IMG/VR virus record: IMGVR_UViG_2706794673_000008
Origin: a virus
Taxonomy: Duplodnaviria; Heunggongvirae; Uroviricota; Caudoviricetes
Length of the DNA stretch: 4,927 bases
Direction: 5' to 3' (one strand)
Position 1 is the stretch's first letter, and each line of letters starts with the position of its first letter. The notes under the pieces were generated by a model. The model had not been told where the DNA came from and made no database searches. It saw only the letters and a program-made list of their open reading frames with translations. This document shows, in pieces, positions 1-4,927 of the stretch. The position numbers and the translations under genes were made by a program.

Positions 1-110
1 TGAGGCAGCACCTGGCACGGCTGGGACGGAAGTCGCTGTCGTTCTCAAAATCGGTGGAGCTGCATGACAAAGCCATCGGGCATTATCTGAACATAAAACA
101 CTATCAATAA
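1..110 (+). CDS. insB: IS1 transposase InsB, C-terminal fragment (5' end outside window)
   Basis: Frame with codons starting at 3 reads ...[35 protein letters not shown] then TAA at 108-110, the recalled InsB C-terminus. Confidence 0.8.
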
Positions 111-125
111 GTTGGAGTCATTACC
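1..125 (+). mobile_element. IS1 right end (3' portion including the right terminal inverted repeat); the rest of the element lies outside the window
   Basis: Sequence 1-125 matches the 3' end of IS1 as I remember it, ending ...CAATAAGTTGGAGTCATTACC at 125. One difference from the canonical copy I recall (AAAGCC vs AAAGTC near position 73). Confidence 0.9.
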
Positions 126-132
126 CCAATTT

Positions 133-146
133 TTTACGTACGTAAA
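133..146. promoter_or_regulatory. Perfect 14-bp palindrome TTTACGTACGTAAA, 8 bp from the IS1 end and about 155 bp upstream of the porin start
   Basis: Read directly: positions 133-146 are self-complementary. Function unknown; candidate dimeric-regulator site. Confidence 0.2.
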
Positions 147-214
147 CCACTAAATGATATTTGCGAGAATGCTACCGAGTATTGAAAACACCACTACAAA
201 TACATAAGCAAATC

Positions 215-235
215 CCAACAAATAACCAACAAATA
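215..235 (+). repeat. Tandem direct repeat CCAACAAATA x2 with 11-bp period upstream of porin gene
   Basis: CCAACAAATA at 215-224 and again at 226-235, separated by one A. Spacing of one helical turn, 67-87 bp upstream of ATG 302; resembles response-regulator direct-repeat sites in general architecture only. Confidence 0.3.
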
Positions 236-301
236 GATTAGATGAATATTTATCGCGCAATGACATCATTTTTTAATAATAGTTCAAAAAAAGGGCTCAC
301 G

Positions 302-1384
302 ATGAAAAAATTAACAGTGGCAATTTCTGCTGTAGCTGCATCAGTACTGATGGCGATGTCTGCTCAGGCAGCTGAAATTTATAATAAAGACAGTAACAAG
401 CTGGATCTGTACGGGAAAGTTAATGCTAAGCACTACTTCTCCTCTAATGATGCAGATGATGGTGATACTACTTATGCCCGTCTTGGCTTCAAAGGTGAAA
501 CCCAAATCAACGATCAACTGACTGGTTTCGGTCAGTGGGAATATGAATTCAAAGGCAACCGCGCTGAATCTCAAGGTTCCTCCAAAGATAAAACCCGTCT
601 TGCCTTCGCTGGCCTGAAATTCGGTGACTACGGCTCCATCGATTACGGCCGTAACTACGGTGTAGCATACGACATCGGTGCGTGGACTGACGTCCTGCCA
701 GAATTCGGTGGTGACACTTGGACTCAAACAGATGTGTTCATGACTGGTCGCACCACTGGTGTTGCAACTTATCGTAACAACGACTTCTTTGGTCTGGTTG
801 ATGGTCTGAACTTTGCTGCTCAGTATCAGGGTAAAAATGACCGCACTGACGTAACTGAAGCTAATGGTGATGGTTTCGGTTTCTCCACTACTTATGAGTA
901 TGAAGGATTCGGTGTAGGTGCAACCTATGCTAAATCTGACCGCACTAATAATCAGGTTATCTACGGTAACAACAGCCTGAATGCATCTGGTCAAAATGCT
1001 GAAGTATGGGCAGCTGGTCTGAAATATGATGCGAACAACATCTATCTGGCTACCACCTATTCTGAAACCCAGAACATGACTGTTTTTGGTAATAACCATA
1101 TTGCCAACAAAGCACAAAACTTCGAAGTAGTTGCACAATATCAGTTCGACTTCGGTCTGCGTCCGTCCGTTGCTTACCTGCAATCTAAAGGAAAAGACTT
1201 GGGTGCGTGGGGTGATCAGGACCTGGTTGAATATATTGATGTAGGTGCAACCTATTACTTCAACAAAAATATGTCCACTTTTGTTGATTACAAAATCAAC
1301 CTGATTGATAAGAGCGATTTCACGAAAGCATCTGGCGTTGCTACCGATGATATCGTTGCTGTAGGTATGGTTTACCAGTTCTAA
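302..1384 (+). CDS. nmpC: Prophage-encoded general porin, NmpC/Lc (OmpC/OmpF/PhoE) family, 360 aa, apparently intact
   Basis: ATG 302 with AAGGG at 291-295. Signal peptide [23 protein letters not shown] then mature AEIYNK..., and C-terminal ...AVGMVYQF with terminal Phe typical of beta-barrel porins. Strongly resembles NmpC/Lc lambdoid porins from memory. The ORF-track start at 242 adds 20 non-signal residues and is not favoured. Confidence 0.9.
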
Positions 1385-1572: not shown

Positions 1573-1956
1573 TTAATTAGAGTTATTAACAACGATATCC
1601 ATCTCTAACCGGATATCTAATGCCATTAACATCCCTTCAATTATGCCCTCAGCCTTCTGTAACCTTTTCCCGATATAACCATCAGAGCAGCAATGCTTAC
1701 CTGCCAGTGACATGAATGTCATACCGACTACATAATAATCTACTAATAAATCGTGCAAATCGCTGTTGTTCTTTTTCAGACGGGCCATGCACCCGCAAAT
1801 AATCATCGCGTCATCGTCACAACATTGCGGGCGAGATTTTACTTTTGAAGTAATTAATCCCTTAAAACCGGCGGCAATGGACGACCAGGTCACATCTTCA
1901 TGATTATTAGCCGCCCACGCTCCCCAACGCTCAAGAACCATCTGAATATCACGCAT
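1573..1956 (-). CDS. quuD: Lambdoid late-gene antiterminator Q (QuuD-like), 127 aa
   Basis: ATG at 1956 with GGAG 7 nt upstream on the minus strand. Protein [24 protein letters not shown]... with Cys-rich CCDDD/CGC/HCC motifs, matching my recollection of DLP12 QuuD. The ORF-track TTG start at 1971 is rejected. Confidence 0.85.
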
Positions 1957-2041
1957 CAACTTACTCCACAAAAATCAGACCAGAACGCCAATTACAAGCA
2001 AAAATCAACAAAACAGTATTAGTTGATTGTTATCTCTGACT

Positions 2042-2182
2042 TCATACTCCTGCTCCTGTCAGGGTTTTGGCGTAATTCTTCAGTATTCGGTAATCGGTCA
2101 AAACAGAACCGGGGAAACGATATAAGCGCAGATGCCCCCAGCGGTGGCGAAGAAGTTCTGCCATATAAAACTCAAACATCAT
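2042..2182 (-). CDS. ylcG: Small nin-region protein YlcG-like, 46 aa
   Basis: ATGATG start at 2182 overlapping the rusA stop (ATGA); translation [46 protein letters not shown]; TGA at 2042-2044. Sits between rusA and Q as in DLP12. Not in the supplied ORF track (below its length cut-off). Confidence 0.6.
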
Positions 2183-2541
2183 TCATTCCCCATTTCGGTG
2201 ATGGTCAGTTCCAGCCTCCCACCTTTGGTAACAGGCATCTTCACAACGCGGTAATCAACGACCTGAGCATCATCCAGCCAGAAACCTGCTTTGGTGAGTG
2301 CGTCAAAAGCGGCTTTTTGCAGATTATCCAGGTCACGGCGACGGCGATCCGGCATGTGGCACTCAATACGGATTTTCACTGGCATAGCCAGGCCGATATC
2401 CAGCATTGCGTTTTTAATGATTCGGGTGACGTTATCGCGGTATGCCTGCCCTTCTGCGCTGATGTGTGTGCGCCCGCGATTATGGCGGTAATAGCGGTTA
2501 TTGCTCGGAGGCCAGGGTAATGTGATGCTGTAGGTATTCAC
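2179..2541 (-). CDS. rusA: Holliday-junction resolvase RusA, 120 aa
   Basis: GTG start at 2541 overlapping the ybcO stop (GTGA). Protein [26 protein letters not shown]...[13 protein letters not shown] matches recalled RusA essentially along its length. Confidence 0.9.
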
Positions 2542-2828
2542 GCCTTAATAACCCCCTCTTTCAGCCAGATAACCTGCGTTCTCGCCATACCTTCCAGCGC
2601 GCATTCTTTTGCATACTCAGCATCGACAAAATATGTGCGGCGGTCGATTTCGTCGTGACAGGCAGAACATGCAATGGTGGCAATCAGGTCTGGCGGTTTG
2701 ATACCGGTACCGCACAATCCAGCCAGCCGGATATGTGCCAGTACTGACGTTTCAGGATTGCCATTACATACGCCAGGGATTCTTACCTGGCATTCCCGAC
2801 CACGCGCTGCTTTTCTCAAATCAGCCAT
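2538..2828 (-). CDS. ybcO: YbcO-like nin-region protein (Cys-rich, putative nuclease, DUF1364-type), 96 aa
   Basis: ATG at 2828 preceded by AGGAGG; protein [37 protein letters not shown]...[11 protein letters not shown]... The ORF-track upstream start at 2867 is a TTG inside ninE and is rejected. Confidence 0.8.
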
Positions 2829-2991
2829 GATTCCTCCTTGCTGCCAGTCGCAACCATTTTTTATCAACCAGGCTAGCGGTATATCCGAGCAGTGTTGGTA
2901 TTTCGGATGGCTTCAGCTCAGGCTTACGCTTACGACGATTTGATACTCTGTAGATGTGCCCGTTCATGACACGAATAAGCGGTGTAGCCAT
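2821..2991 (-). CDS. ninE: NinE-family protein, 56 aa
   Basis: Hand translation of the minus strand: [56 protein letters not shown], stop TGA at 2821-2823. GGAGG upstream; start shares one base with the ybcN stop (TAATG); 8-nt overlap with the ybcO start. Not in the supplied ORF track (below its length cut-off). Confidence 0.75.
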   Translation of the reverse strand: MATPLIRVMNGHIYRVSNRRKRKPELKPSEIPTLLGYTASLVDKKWLRLAARRNHG

Positions 2992-3446
2992 TACGCCTCC
3001 TGCTTATCGCGCAGCTGCTGGTATTCACAGCTCTGCGGAATTGTCAGGTGGCAGCCGATATTCATCGCCCAGGCTTCGACTTTGCACAGGAAGATGTACA
3101 TCTCGCCGGTTTCCAGCTCTGACGTATGGCGGAGGGATTGGACGGTGGTGACCTCGCCGGACACGACATCTACACGGTCTTTGCTTTCGTAGCCGAGATA
3201 GGTGTGCTTCATCGCGTCTTTGACCCACTCAGGCGTAGCGAAGGTCTTGCCGCGGGCGATGAGATATTCGCTGATCTCCGTGTACCACATGTGGCTGAGC
3301 GCGTTCTGCGACAGGCTGCGCTTCTCGCGCCACGGCTTAACCTGCAGGCGTAAGCATTGCCCGGCATCCAGCAATGGCTGAATCTGCTGGCCGATGGCCG
3401 CGAAGTTACCGCGATGGAGTTTGATGCCGTCTACTGGCAGAGTCAT
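2991..3446 (-). CDS. ybcN: YbcN / NinB(Orf)-family recombination protein, 151 aa
   Basis: ATG at 3446 with GGGAGG upstream; contains an RSLSQNALSHMW motif resembling lambda NinB/Orf; position immediately upstream of ninE as in lambdoid nin regions. Confidence 0.85.
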   Translation of the reverse strand: MTLPVDGIKLHRGNFAAIGQQIQPLLDAGQCLRLQVKPWREKRSLSQNALSHMWYTEISEYLIARGKTFATPEWVKDAMKHTYLGYESKDRVDVVSGEVTTVQSLRHTSELETGEMYIFLCKVEAWAMNIGCHLTIPQSCEYQQLRDKQEA

Positions 3447-3538
3447 ACGGCCTCCCTAACGGAAACCGCAGAATGCAGAAAATCGCAGGTGCATTTCTGC
3501 ATCTGTGACAAGGTGATGAGTTCAGATTGTGGTCGCAT
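3443..3538 (-). CDS. 31-aa leader ORF translationally coupled to ybcN (possibly YlcH-like)
   Basis: Minus-strand ATG at 3538 directly after an in-frame TAA, with AAGGGGA upstream; translation MRPQSELITLSQMQKCTCDFLHSAVSVREAV; its TGA overlaps the ybcN ATG (ATGA). Identity with ylcH not verified. Not in the supplied ORF track (below its length cut-off). Confidence 0.35.
   Translation of the reverse strand: MRPQSELITLSQMQKCTCDFLHSAVSVREAV
3473..3502 (-). other. Inverted repeat ATGCAGAAA-N12-TTTCTGCAT inside the leader ORF, just upstream of the ybcN ribosome-binding site
   Basis: Perfect 9-bp arms read directly. On the minus-strand RNA it is followed by moderately U-rich UCUGCGGUUUCC; candidate attenuator or weak terminator. 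Confidence 0.3.
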
Positions 3539-3557
3539 TTAAGTCCCCTTAAATGCG
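3534..3557 (-). promoter_or_regulatory. Stem-loop (10-bp stem, 4-nt loop) enclosing the SD and start codon of the leader ORF
   Basis: CGCATTTAAG-TCCC-CTTAAATGCG on the + strand. On the minus-strand RNA the leader-ORF ATG (3538-3536) lies in the stem and its SD (GGGGA) overlaps the loop. Confidence 0.3.
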
Positions 3558-3594
3558 CAGAAGTCACCGGAGTTGTTCAGGCTCCGATGAGAGG

Positions 3595-3623
3595 ATTATG
3601 GCGGATTGATTACGATAAATCAA
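3595..3623 (-). promoter_or_regulatory. Candidate sigma70 promoter for the minus-strand nin operon
   Basis: Minus-strand -35 TTGATT (3623-3618), 17-bp spacer, -10 CATAAT (3600-3595). Would place a transcription start about 50 bp upstream of the leader ORF. Confidence 0.3.
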
Positions 3624-3645
3624 AACTATCTTGAAGCCAAAACAG

Positions 3646-3674
3646 TGATCTTCGCTTTAAAAACCTTGTATACT
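3646..3674 (+). promoter_or_regulatory. Candidate promoter for the + strand cargo operon (divergent from the nin promoter)
   Basis: -10-like TATACT at 3669-3674 with TG immediately upstream; -35 poorly matched (TGATCT at 3646-3651). Weak call. Confidence 0.2.
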
Positions 3675-3710
3675 TTCACCTAATCACAGCCAGAACTATG
3701 GATCTAACCA

Positions 3711-4088
3711 ATGACCAACAAAGAAAACAAAGATAAATATATTAACAAGTTCAAGAAAGAGCTTTCAAAATATATACAACCAACTGCTGGAGTGGACATT
3801 CAATTATTTAACTCTAAGGATGGTGGTGGTGTAATTAAAGCCACTTTGAATAGAAGTGGAAAAAGAAAATCATCTATTGCTGGTAATTTTACTAAATTAG
3901 GTGAGGCAATTACCTCGAGTGGGCAGAGGGTTTTTGGTGGTGATCTATCAAATGTGAATTTTTACGGAACAAATACGATTTTTGATGGAGATACAATATT
4001 TTTAATTAAATCACCTGATTCAGAGGAGTGGTCATCACAAAAAGCTTCCAAAGACGTAGAGGGCATCGTATTTGGAGGGAAAAAATGA
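3711..4088 (+). CDS. Hypothetical protein, 125 aa, soluble, Lys-rich N-terminus and Gly-rich beta-like core; AT-rich codon usage
   Basis: ATG 3711 to TGA 4086-4088; no signal peptide or TM segment; region is visibly much more AT-rich than the flanking nin genes. No family recognised. Confidence 0.6.
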   Translation: MTNKENKDKYINKFKKELSKYIQPTAGVDIQLFNSKDGGGVIKATLNRSGKRKSSIAGNFTKLGEAITSSGQRVFGGDLSNVNFYGTNTIFDGDTIFLIKSPDSEEWSSQKASKDVEGIVFGGKK

Positions 4089-4132
4089 TTAACATTACTA
4101 CTAAGGATGCACTCAAGTCAGTGGTGAAGTAA
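4085..4132 (+). CDS. 15-codon micro-ORF (MINITTKDALKSVVK) with a strong SD, overlapping the stop of the upstream gene; possibly the true 5' end of the downstream membrane-protein gene broken by a frameshift
   Basis: GGAGGG at 4073-4078, then A6, then ATG 4085 overlapping TGA 4086-4088 (ATGA); stop TAA at 4130-4132. Overlaps the open part of the downstream gene's frame between 4105 and 4129. Confidence 0.25.
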   Translation: MINITTKDALKSVVK

Positions 4133-4170
4133 GAGATCTAGTAATTCTTCTTGAAACTGATGGAAAAACG

Positions 4171-4512
4171 GTGTCTGATTATTTGCAGCCAATCCCTCCC
4201 AAAAAAGATACACACTGGAGCATGATTTTCATTCCGGTAGCAATTTATATACTACTTAATCTTGTATACATTATTGCTCACCCATTATTTCCTGAAAAAT
4301 ATCTAAAAACATCAACATCTATATTTCTATTCATTTCCTTCATATTAAGTGCAATAGTAGCATATTTTGTTTTCCATAAGCATAAATCTGCCACTCGATC
4401 CATATGCAGCTTAGTGTTCTTAGTGTTAATTGTAGGTGCTAACGTAGGGTTTATCAGTTACAGCGACCTAACACAAAAAGCGACGCAAAAATTAGATAGT
4501 TTGTCTAAATAA
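4171..4512 (+). CDS. Hypothetical small integral membrane protein (about 3 TM helices), 113 aa as drawn; start uncertain
   Basis: Three hydrophobic stretches (IFIPVAIYILLNLVYIIAHPLF, IFLFISFILSAIVAYFVF, ICSLVFLVLIVGANVGFISY). The GTG start at 4171 has only a weak SD; alternative in-frame ATG at 4222, or an upstream start at 4085 if a frameshift is assumed. TAA at 4510-4512. Confidence 0.55.
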   Translation: MSDYLQPIPPKKDTHWSMIFIPVAIYILLNLVYIIAHPLFPEKYLKTSTSIFLFISFILSAIVAYFVFHKHKSATRSICSLVFLVLIVGANVGFISYSDLTQKATQKLDSLSK

Positions 4513-4619
4513 TTATGTTGCCATGCGAAGTATGCATGGCTGCATGTCTGCCTTCCATTTAAAATGGGCTAAGACCTATAACCCTAAATATTATTCTTTA
4601 TTATCTTCTTTACCACTTC

Positions 4620-4850
4620 GGTGATGCTGCCAACTTACTGATTTAGTGTATGATGGTGTTTTTGAGGTGCTCCAGTGGCTTCTGTTTCTATCAGCTGTCC
4701 CTCCTGTTCAGCTACTGACGGGGTGGTGCGTAACGGCAAAAGCACTGCCGGACATCAGCGCTATCTCTGCTCTCACTGCCGTAAAACATGGCAACTGCAG
4801 TTCACTTACACCGCTTCTCAACCCGGTACGCACCAGAAAATCATTGATAT
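4620..4850 (+). mobile_element. IS1 left end (left inverted repeat plus 5' part of insA), truncated internally at about 4850
   Basis: GGTGATGCTGCCAACTTACTGATTTAGTGTATGATGG... matches the recalled IS1 left end. Similarity to IS1 stops after ...AAAATCATTGATAT (4850), where IS1 continues GGCCATG but the window continues TGTCAGCGCC. Confidence 0.9.
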
Positions 4851-4878
4851 TGTCAGCGCCAGTGATATAAGACGGTAA
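4675..4878 (+). pseudogene. insA: insA' : IS1 InsA truncated after about residue 58 and fused to 9 unrelated codons
   Basis: GTG 4675; [58 protein letters not shown] matches InsA, then IVSASDIRR and stop; the native InsA C-terminus is absent. Confidence 0.75.
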
Positions 4879-4927
4879 TTCGCCATTTGGATTGTCCGCT
4901 CCACCCAACATGTTGTTTCCTTAAGGT

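What the first reader, a model, noticed from the sequence alone, without database searches (positions are those of the whole stretch)
3560..4619. AT-rich two-gene cargo (125-aa soluble protein plus small 3-TM membrane protein) beside the nin region, on the opposite strand
Seen: a roughly 1-kb stretch that is visibly far more AT-rich than the adjacent nin genes carries two co-oriented ORFs (3711-4088 and 4171-4512, or starting 4085) with their own putative promoter, transcribed divergently from the nin operon. Neither protein matches a family I can name; the second is a small polytopic membrane protein. Established: lambdoid prophages carry morons at such junctions, and many encode membrane-associated superinfection-exclusion or abortive-infection functions (lambda SieB and RexB, T4 Imm, P22 SieA are examples). 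Inference: this pair is a candidate undescribed prophage accessory module (exclusion, abortive infection or small toxin-like system). Function is not demonstrated by anything in the sequence.
Basis: partly seen in the sequence, partly recalled or inferred. Interest (0 to 1): 0.7.

Follow-up and report, generated by a model that had tools for sequence, protein, structure and literature searches.

The report
Unannotated two-gene prophage cargo, decayed copy
The AT-rich insert beside the nin genes is a real, strictly paired two-gene operon (a small soluble protein plus a three-helix membrane protein) that recurs from enterobacterial prophages to Bacteroidetes and has no annotation anywhere; it is probably a phage-exclusion or toxin-like module, and the copy in this window is already broken.

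Summary
Window 3626-4590 is a 34.8% GC insert between the nin genes (51-58% GC) and the phage P gene, and it carries two co-oriented genes antisense to the early-right operon.

One correction is needed. The second gene is properly 142 aa. It starts at ATG 4085, which overlaps the stop of gene A (ATGA). In this window one G is missing at 4109, so only a 15-codon stub and a 113-aa GTG remnant are left, without the near-invariant N-terminal domain. An IS1 fragment has also replaced P.

The intact pair is in 46 of 5,426 complete E. coli genomes, always at this slot. Both genes are under strong purifying selection (dN/dS about 0.07-0.10).

Gene A belongs to a family of 111 clusters spread across several phyla. 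In 83 of 85 related loci with room downstream, a homolog of gene B follows it, usually with the same 4-nt overlap. No third gene is conserved.

Pfam, NCBIfam, PADLOC, PDB and fold searches name neither protein, and PHROGs lists both as unknown. There is no homology to RexA or RexB.

The best reading, which is inferred, is a self-contained conflict module with a cytosolic sensor/regulator and a membrane effector, working like Rex. A toxin-antitoxin function is the main rival.

The parts
3626..4590 (.). AT-rich insert (moron-like cargo) between the conserved lambdoid orf33/ninB upstream region and the stop codon of phage P
   Evidence: GC is 0.348, against 0.51-0.58 for the nin genes. Homology to phages and prophages that lack the insert stops at about 3625. 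The P stop codon maps to 4591 by alignment with E. coli 536.
3669..3674 (+). Candidate -10 element (TATACT) of the module's promoter. There is no good -35.
   Evidence: It sits at the same alignment position as TATGAT in the 76%-identical copy L017. The consensus scan does not call it. Unproven.
3711..4088 (+). Gene A: a 125-aa soluble basic protein (pI 9.5), intact in this window
   Evidence: ORF. Its protein is identical to that of E. coli 536, with 3 synonymous differences. It matches PHROG 18061, function unknown. The family has 111 clusters at 50% identity. The AF2 model is an alpha/beta two-layer fold, pLDDT 58. Maximum 17-residue hydropathy is 0.44, so no membrane segment.
4085..4512 (+). 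Gene B, frameshifted here. The intact form is a 142-aa inner-membrane protein with a conserved 36-aa cytosolic N-terminal domain and 3 TM helices. ATG 4085 overlaps the TGA of gene A (ATGA), and GGAGGG lies 5 nt upstream.
   Evidence: One G is missing at 4109 relative to E. coli 536 and 45 other genomes. It matches PHROG 16940, where the window ORF covers only profile positions 30-142 of 142. The N-terminal 36 residues are almost invariant among enteric copies. Structure model; topology.
4085..4132 (+). 15-codon stub left of gene B before the frameshift-induced stop
   Evidence: Read directly from the sequence.
4171..4512 (+). 113-aa GTG-initiated remnant ORF of gene B: the TM part only, without the conserved N-terminal domain
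   Evidence: Annotated as 'Uncharacterised protein [Shigella sonnei]'.
4515..4545 (+). Stable hairpin just after the gene B stop (terminator-like, with a poor U tail)
   Evidence: Inverted repeat I7. The 4505-4575 stretch folds at -22.4 kcal/mol, z = -3.0.
4591..4620 (-). Last ~10 codons of phage replication gene P; the rest has been deleted
   Evidence: Alignment to E. coli 536, where P is intact and converges on gene B.
4620..4850 (+). IS1 left end with a truncated insA. It marks the break of the prophage backbone.
   Evidence: Pfam InsA N-terminal domain, E 1e-21. The junction is seen in the alignment. A second IS1 copy in L006 matches window 4617-4850.
3534..3623 (-). Backbone element next to the insert: a putative leftward promoter (TTGATT 3623-3618, CATAAT 3600-3595) and the palindrome 3534-3557, upstream of orf33-ninB
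   Evidence: Scan hit and inverted repeat I4. The homologous stretch of phage 82 is annotated as putative -35/-10 plus a possible regulator-binding site.

Best explanation
Shown.
- The insert is a self-contained, horizontally mobile two-gene operon.
- Gene A encodes a ~125-aa cytosolic alpha/beta protein.
- Gene B is translationally coupled to gene A through an ATGA overlap and its own strong ribosome-binding site. It encodes a ~125-142-aa inner-membrane protein with a small conserved cytosolic N-terminal domain (beta-hairpin plus helix), three TM helices, and a conserved basic TM2-TM3 loop (RFK, or HKHK in the enteric copies).
- In DLP12/lambda-like prophages the operon sits in the slot that holds ren in lambda, between P and orf33-ninB. 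It points against the early-right (pR) transcript.

Inferred.
- Because of that position and orientation, it would be expressed on its own, most plausibly in the lysogen.
- It is a conflict module that works like lambda RexAB. The soluble A protein binds the cytosolic N-terminal domain of B and acts as sensor or regulator.
- On a trigger such as infection by another phage, B oligomerises through its small-residue-rich third helix and makes the inner membrane leaky. That aborts the infection.

This window. The copy is of the Shigella sonnei type and is a decaying remnant. B has lost its invariant N-terminal domain to a 1-nt deletion, and IS1 has removed the neighbouring P gene. The module is probably non-functional here.

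The confidence given applies to the inferred function. The shown parts (real, paired, mobile operon, broken here) I hold at above 0.9.
For: Real genes, kept as a pair.
- dN/dS is 0.07-0.10 for both genes.
- Of 85 related loci with a gene A ORF and at least 400 nt downstream, 83 have a gene B homolog next to it. The other two carry only truncated A fragments. 55 of the 83 share the 4-nt overlap.
- The pairwise identity matrices of A and B correlate, r = 0.89, Mantel p = 0.001.
- Enteric and distant B proteins are homologous by hhalign: probability 96%, E 4.9e-9.

Mobile and accessory.
- The pair is in 46 of 5,426 complete E. coli genomes.
- Its composition is foreign.
- Relatives occur in Gamma-, Beta- and Deltaproteobacteria, Nitrospira, Acidobacteria, Myxococcales and Bacteroidetes.
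- No third gene is conserved.
- Neighbourhoods vary. They include prophages, a toxin-antitoxin-rich islet, BrxA directly downstream in one MAG, and AbiTii and OLD/Gabija-like ATPases nearby.

Topology.
- 58 of 64 B proteins have three hydrophobic segments.
- The TM2-TM3 loop is net positive (K+R 1.76, D+E 0.21), which puts the N terminus inside the cell.
- The N-terminal 36 residues are the best-conserved part of B among the enteric copies.

Modularity of A. One relative fuses the A domain to an HNH nuclease.

Neither gene seems lethal alone.
- Natural strains carry A knocked out with B intact: an IS1 insertion and a frameshift.
- Others carry B knocked out with A intact: this window, L006 and L014.
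- That fits a trigger-dependent system better than an addiction module.
Against: - The gene A model is poor (pLDDT 58), so the fold is not settled.
- Most neighbours of distant homologs are housekeeping genes. Only a minority are defence or mobile-element genes, and no enrichment statistic could be computed.
- The promoter is not convincing, so expression in the lysogen is assumed.
- The HNH fusion is a single metagenomic protein.
- The A-B interaction and pore formation are pure inference.
Confidence: 0.4

Rival explanations
1. Toxin-antitoxin (addiction) module. B is a membrane toxin held in check by the soluble A protein (or by A acting on the B mRNA), as in GhoS/GhoT or CptB/CptA. It would stabilise the prophage or island that carries it.
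For: The layout is typical of TA operons: a small soluble gene first, a small membrane gene second, and a 4-nt overlap. The module is self-contained and patchily distributed. One relative sits among BrnA and Gp49/HTH TA genes.
Against: Two E. coli strains carry a disrupted gene A with an intact gene B. One has an IS1 insertion and one has a frameshift that should not stop transcription. That is unexpected if A were an essential antitoxin. There is no match to GhoS/GhoT, CptA or any other TA family in Pfam or NCBIfam. At 125-142 aa with 3 TM helices, B is larger than the usual membrane toxins.
Confidence: 0.2
2. Superinfection exclusion at the envelope. B, helped by A, blocks DNA entry or a membrane receptor used by incoming phages, as P22 SieA, T4 Imm or HK97 gp15 do.
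For: It is prophage cargo on the strand opposite the lytic operon and encodes a small inner-membrane protein.
Against: Most family members are chromosomal, lie outside prophages, and occur in phyla with unrelated phages. A strictly co-inherited cytosolic partner is not a feature of the known injection blockers. No isolated phage in INPHARED carries gene A.
Confidence: 0.1
3. A non-conflict accessory membrane function, such as ion or metal homeostasis or an envelope-stress response, that happens to ride on mobile elements.
For: Many relatives sit between housekeeping genes. One source auto-names B as a 'VIT1/CCC1 family predicted Fe2+/Mn2+ transporter'.
Against: Pfam finds no VIT1 or any other transporter family for B, in the enteric or the distant copies. 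The pair is present in fewer than 1% of E. coli genomes and has foreign composition. It is repeatedly knocked out in nature.
Confidence: 0.15
4. Not a functional feature: chance ORFs in AT-rich junk DNA.
For: AT-rich DNA has few stop codons in some frames. The copy in this window is in fact broken.
Against: dN/dS is about 0.07-0.10 at high dS. Both proteins are conserved as a pair across phyla.
Confidence: 0.01

Closest known systems
Lambda RexA/RexB exclusion system
   Same: A two-gene prophage cargo with a soluble protein followed by a small polytopic inner-membrane protein (RexB is 144 aa, gene B is 142 aa). It lies outside the lytic programme. The proposed logic is the same: a sensor plus a membrane effector that aborts infection.
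   Different: There is no sequence relationship: hhalign probability is 0.04% for A against RexA and 0.2% for B against RexB, and the PADLOC Rex models do not hit. A is 125 aa, RexA is 279 aa. B has 3 predicted TM helices plus an N-terminal cytosolic domain, whereas RexB is described with 4 TM helices (my own knowledge). The genomic position differs: the ren slot, not the immunity region.
PHROG families 18061 and 16940
   Same: The window proteins are members: E 9e-85 and 1e-73.
   Different: Both families are labelled 'unknown function', so membership gives no mechanism.
Membrane-toxin TA pairs: GhoS/GhoT (type V) and CptB/CptA = YgfY/YgfX (type IV)
   Same: A small soluble protein is encoded first and a small inner-membrane protein second, in a compact operon (comparison from my own knowledge of these systems).
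   Different: There is no Pfam or NCBIfam match to those families. Natural gene A knock-outs with gene B intact exist.
Mycobacteriophage prophage defences with a cytosolic plus a membrane protein (Sbash gp30/gp31, Butters gp30/gp31)
   Same: Prophage-expressed two-protein systems in which one partner is a polytopic membrane protein (recalled from the literature, not tested here).
   Different: They come from Actinobacteria phages. No sequence comparison was made, and no PADLOC hit was found.
Lambda ren and other cargo of the P-ninB junction
   Same: The same genomic slot in the lambdoid backbone.
   Different: ren lies on the same strand as P and is a single soluble protein. The module here is antisense and has two genes.

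Membership tests
Lambda RexAB | Sequence or profile homology of the soluble partner to RexA and of the membrane partner to RexB | tested here: not met
   hhalign of A5 against RexA gives probability 0.04%; A9 against RexB gives 0.2%. No PADLOC hit.
Lambda RexAB | Two-gene prophage operon: a soluble protein plus a small polytopic inner-membrane protein | tested here: met
Lambda RexAB | Expressed in the lysogen and excludes other phages by membrane depolarisation | not testable with these tools
   Needs transcript mapping and phage challenge.
Moron (independent cargo unit in a phage genome) | Base composition different from the flanking phage genes | tested here: met
   GC 0.348 against 0.51-0.58; GC3 0.26-0.29 against 0.76.
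Moron (independent cargo unit in a phage genome) | Inserted between backbone genes | tested here: met
   The 70-93 nt stretch left of the insert is shared with phages 82, HK639, lambda-like phages and about 2,100 E. coli records that lack the insert. In carriers it always lies between P and orf33-ninB or within the nin region.
Moron (independent cargo unit in a phage genome) | Own promoter and terminator | tested here: inconclusive
   Only a conserved -10-like hexamer with no consensus promoter. There is a stable hairpin after gene B, but without a good U tract.
Known or candidate anti-phage defence systems (PADLOC-DB v2.0.0) | A significant hit of either protein, or of family members, to a defence-system HMM | tested here: not met
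   Gene A has none. Gene B's best hit is E 0.046, to a generic 4TM effector. The 72 family members of A give only scattered hits at E of 0.002 or weaker. Systems described after 2023 were not covered.
Toxin-antitoxin systems with membrane toxins (GhoST, CptAB, type I toxins) | Homology to the toxin or antitoxin families | tested here: not met
   No Pfam or NCBIfam family passes threshold.
Toxin-antitoxin systems with membrane toxins (GhoST, CptAB, type I toxins) | The antitoxin cannot be lost while the toxin stays intact | tested here: inconclusive
   Gene A is disrupted with gene B intact in E. coli CV839-06 (IS1, which may be polar) and in Es_ST80 (a frameshift, which may be a sequencing error). 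This points against a TA function but is not decisive.
Holins (class I, 3 TM) and superinfection-exclusion proteins (SieA, SieB, Imm, Cor) | Homology to the described families | tested here: not met
   No Pfam holin or Sie family is hit. The PHROG categories are 'unknown function'.
VIT1/CCC1 Fe2+/Mn2+ transporters (an automatic name given by one source) | Match to the VIT1 family profile | tested here: not met
   No VIT1 hit in Pfam at E up to 0.1 for the enteric B, or at E up to 0.01 for the distant B proteins.

The most novel reading that the evidence does not exclude
The pair is a previously undescribed anti-phage abortive-infection system that spans several phyla. It is built from two protein families that have no Pfam entry: a new ~125-aa cytosolic sensor domain, which can also be fused to an HNH nuclease, and a dedicated 3-TM membrane effector with a tiny cytosolic docking domain.
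Probability: 0.35. Interest if true: 0.7.

Novelty: new variant of a known kind. Interest (0 to 1): 0.45.

Why it matters
If the intact pair protects against phages, it would add a compact defence system of about 0.8 kb, made of two families that no database describes. The soluble partner would be a candidate new infection-sensing domain, and the membrane partner a minimal effector.

The system would be easy to test, because an intact copy sits in the well-studied uropathogen E. coli 536.

It would also mark the P/ninB (ren) junction of lambdoid prophages as a cargo slot worth mining.

For this particular window the point is smaller. The Shigella sonnei-type prophage remnant carries a broken copy, which is one more example of IS-driven and frameshift decay in that lineage.

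Tried and rejected
Family and defence-system searches.
- Pfam, NCBIfam and PADLOC scans of both proteins, of 72 gene A relatives and of 16 distant gene B relatives gave nothing above threshold. The TM-rich hits (7TMR-DISM and similar) are compositional.
- PDB sequence-profile searches with three alignments gave nothing.

Structure.
- AF2 models: gene A is poor (pLDDT 58); gene B is fair in the TM part only.
- Foldseek against BFVD gave no hit at E 0.001 or better.
- The AFDB library was not available.

RNA and repeats. The Rfam scan of the whole window gave no hit. No meaningful repeats were found in the insert.

Collections.
- Isolate phage genomes and plasmids do not carry gene A.
- The first scan of species-representative genomes, with enteric patterns, found nothing.

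Literature. Searches by protein accession and by topic found no description of this pair.

Ideas dropped.
- A Roadblock/LC7-like fold for gene A occurred to me from the predicted alpha-beta-beta-alpha-beta-beta-alpha order. No search supports it, so it is not claimed.
- The pentapeptide-repeat hit (P0013) is most likely an assembly chimera on a 1.1-kb contig.
Full report
What the window is. It is a fragment of a DLP12/lambda-like prophage, seen in reverse orientation:
- a prophage porin at 242-1384 (+);
- antiterminator Q at 1573-1971 (-);
- ylcG at about 2045-2182 (-);
- rusA at 2179-2541 (-);
- ybcO at 2538-2867 (-);
- ninE at 2821-2991 (-);
- ninB/ybcN at 2991-3446 (-);
- a short orf33 homolog at 3458-3538 (-);
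- the AT-rich insert;
- an IS1 left end from about 4620.

Observation. The insert, 3626-4590, is 34.8% GC, against 51-58% for the nin genes. Its third-codon-position GC is 0.26-0.29, against 0.76 for ninB. Alignment with E. coli 536 shows that the second gene really starts at ATG 4085. That ATG overlaps the TGA of the first gene (ATGA), and a GGAGGG ribosome-binding site lies 5 nt upstream. The window has lost one G of a GG pair at 4109. The intact product is 142 aa. Here only a 15-codon stub (4085-4132) and a 113-aa GTG remnant (4171-4512) are left. PHROG 16940 says the same thing independently: the remnant covers only profile positions 30-142 of 142. The frameshift is not a read error. An independent assembly that is 99.94% identical over 4.7 kb has it too (L006), and the 113-aa remnant is deposited under Shigella sonnei accessions. 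To the right, only the last ~10 codons of the replication gene P survive (4591-4620) before IS1 begins. IS1 is itself cut at 4850/4851.

Where the intact module lives. 46 of 5,426 complete E. coli genomes hold the full stretch at 99.4% identity or more. They include the uropathogenic strain 536. In all of them, and in 17 viral-contig loci, the order is P (-), gene B (+), gene A (+), orf33-ninB (-). The pair therefore lies antisense inside the early-right operon, in the slot that holds ren in lambda. The 70-93 nt left of the insert is ordinary lambdoid backbone. It is found in about 2,100 E. coli records and in phages 82, HK639 and others that lack the insert. In the phage 82 record it is annotated as a putative promoter plus a possible regulator-binding palindrome for orf33-orf151. 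The same elements are at window 3595-3623 and 3534-3557. The module proteins stay 100% identical where the flanking ybcN is only 79-83% identical, which points to mosaic exchange around a recently spread cassette. A more distant copy (76% and 66% protein identity, L017) lies elsewhere in the nin region of a different prophage, again antisense. No isolated phage in INPHARED and no PLSDB plasmid encodes gene A.

Are they genes? Comparisons between enteric copies give dN/dS of 0.07-0.10 for both genes at dS 0.55-2.5. One gene B pair is higher, at 0.19.

Family breadth. An exhaustive profile search with gene A found 111 clusters at 50% identity, nearly all 120-135 aa and aligned end to end. Scans of species genomes and metagenomes place members in Gamma-, Beta- and Deltaproteobacteria, Nitrospira, Acidobacteria, Myxococcales, Bacteroides and Flavobacteria.

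Strict pairing. I examined 100 related loci:
- 83 have gene A followed by a gene B homolog.
- 9 end less than 400 nt after gene A.
- 6 have no complete gene A ORF.
- 2 have room downstream but no gene B, and these carry only truncated fragments of gene A.
The stop/start overlap is exactly 4 nt in 55 of the 83. The distant downstream proteins are homologous to the enteric gene B: hhalign probability 96%, E 4.9e-9 over 112 columns. They share the same plan: an N-terminal soluble segment (consensus MKxG..EGtpEEv.dlF.n.GLdl..YiEkP), three hydrophobic helices and a basic TM2-TM3 loop (RFK). The pairwise identity matrices of A and B across 66 unique pairs correlate, r = 0.89, Mantel p = 0.001. An all-against-all comparison of neighbours finds no third conserved gene.

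Known families.
- Pfam, NCBIfam and PADLOC-DB v2 give no significant hit for either protein, for 72 relatives of A, or for 16 distant relatives of B.
- PDB profile searches are empty.
- PHROGs 18061 and 16940 contain the two proteins but are of unknown function.
- Every source name is 'hypothetical' or 'uncharacterised', except one automatic 'VIT1/CCC1' label that Pfam does not support.
- Direct profile comparison with lambda RexA and RexB is negative.
- Full-text literature searches by accession and by topic found no description. A paper outside the held library, or a system named after 2023, cannot be excluded.

Context of relatives. Neighbourhoods differ from locus to locus. Examples:
- a temperate-phage region with integrase, lysozyme and holin;
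- a toxin-antitoxin-rich islet with BrnA, Gp49/HTH and a Ymh protein;
- a position just after ligA;
- BrxA immediately downstream in one MAG;
- among 133 neighbours from 35 metagenome loci, two AbiTii, two OLD/Gabija-like ATPases, two integrases, a filamentous-phage replication protein and a cytosine methylase.
Otherwise the neighbours are mostly housekeeping genes. This is the pattern of a small mobile accessory cassette. It is compatible with defence, but I could not compute an enrichment. One metagenomic protein fuses the gene A domain to an HNH nuclease. One gene B is fused to a 310-aa extension with no Pfam match.

Natural knock-outs.
- Gene B is frameshifted in the S. sonnei-type copy (this window and L006) and, independently, in L014.
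- Gene A is interrupted by IS1 in E. coli CV839-06, frameshifted in Es_ST80, and truncated in one more E. coli protein, in the first two cases with gene B intact.
Either gene can be lost alone. That argues, with caveats about polarity and sequencing errors, against a classical addiction pair in which A is indispensable.

Mechanism. The shown steps are the architecture, the coupling, the co-inheritance, the topology prediction, the mobility and the position in the prophage. The inferred steps are as follows. The operon is expressed independently of the lytic programme. The cytosolic A protein docks on the conserved cytosolic N-terminus of B, with matched amounts ensured by translational coupling. 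A phage-derived cue then turns B into a membrane-permeabilising oligomer, which aborts the infection. In logic this is a Rex-like system, but by sequence it is not a Rex family member. I put this at about 0.4. The rivals are a toxin-antitoxin function (0.2), a non-conflict membrane function (0.15) and envelope-level superinfection exclusion (0.1).

Signals. A stable hairpin follows gene B (4515-4545; the 71-nt stretch around it folds at -22.4 kcal/mol, z = -3.0), but it has no good U tract. The only promoter evidence is a -10-like TATACT at 3669-3674, conserved as TATGAT in L017, without a recognisable -35. No Rfam family matches anywhere in the window.

Verdict. The new findings are these:
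- The second gene is broken in this window.
- The pair is an ancient, strictly linked, un-annotated two-gene module that extends far beyond prophages.
- It belongs to no described defence, toxin-antitoxin, holin or exclusion family that could be tested here.
It is a reasonable candidate for a new defence or toxin-like system of a familiar kind, and it should be tested with the intact E. coli 536 copy rather than with this remnant.

Noticed in passing
window 4620-4927: An IS1 left end with only the N-terminal part of insA has replaced phage gene P. IS1 is itself cut at 4850/4851 by an unrelated sequence that occurs at more than 3,000 places in E. coli genomes, mostly on plasmids, under varied transposase annotations. 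This looks like nested IS events that truncate the prophage.
   Followed up: partly
window 3534-3623 (- strand): TTGATT-17-CATAAT plus a perfect 10-nt palindrome (CGCATTTAAG/CTTAAATGCG) upstream of orf33-ninB. The homologous stretch of phage 82 (X92588) is annotated as a putative promoter and a possible regulator-binding site. It is conserved in about 2,100 E. coli records. It could be a nin-region promoter independent of pR.
   Followed up: partly
L043 (E. coli CV839-06), L044 (E. coli Es_ST80), L014:6375-6800: Independent natural knock-outs of the module: IS1 inside gene A, a frameshift in gene A, and a separate 1-nt deletion in gene B. They are useful as natural single-gene mutants.
   Followed up: yes
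P0104 (447 aa, metagenomic): The gene A domain (residues 7-119) is fused to an HNH endonuclease domain (191-231) and a ~200-aa tail. This hints that the A domain is a portable regulatory or sensor module.
   Followed up: partly
L096:3198-4523: A gene B homolog fused in frame to a 310-aa C-terminal extension that contains an RCLLVH (Rx4H, HEPN-like) motif and has no Pfam match. The sister contig L097 has the normal 129-aa gene.
   Followed up: partly
P0013 (127 aa, 1.1-kb ENA contig): Pentapeptide-repeat sequence joined to the last 48 residues of gene A at a shared DLSNVNF motif. It is most likely an assembly chimera.
   Followed up: no
L004, L005, L006, L018 compared with L001: The module proteins are 100% identical while the adjacent ybcN/ninB is only 79-83% identical and P is 96-99% identical. 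The backbone has recombined around a recently spread cassette.
   Followed up: partly
window 242-1384: The prophage porin ORF runs 380 aa from the first ATG, but the annotated homolog in E. coli 536 (named OmpC there, an NmpC-like prophage porin) is 360 aa and corresponds to a start at 302. The gene is intact here, unlike the IS5-disrupted nmpC of K-12 (the K-12 point is from my own knowledge).
   Followed up: no
window 1-239 compared with L006 and L019: The first ~240 nt of the window match L006 and L019 at displaced or inverted positions relative to the rest. This suggests a rearrangement or insertion just upstream of the porin gene in related assemblies.
   Followed up: no
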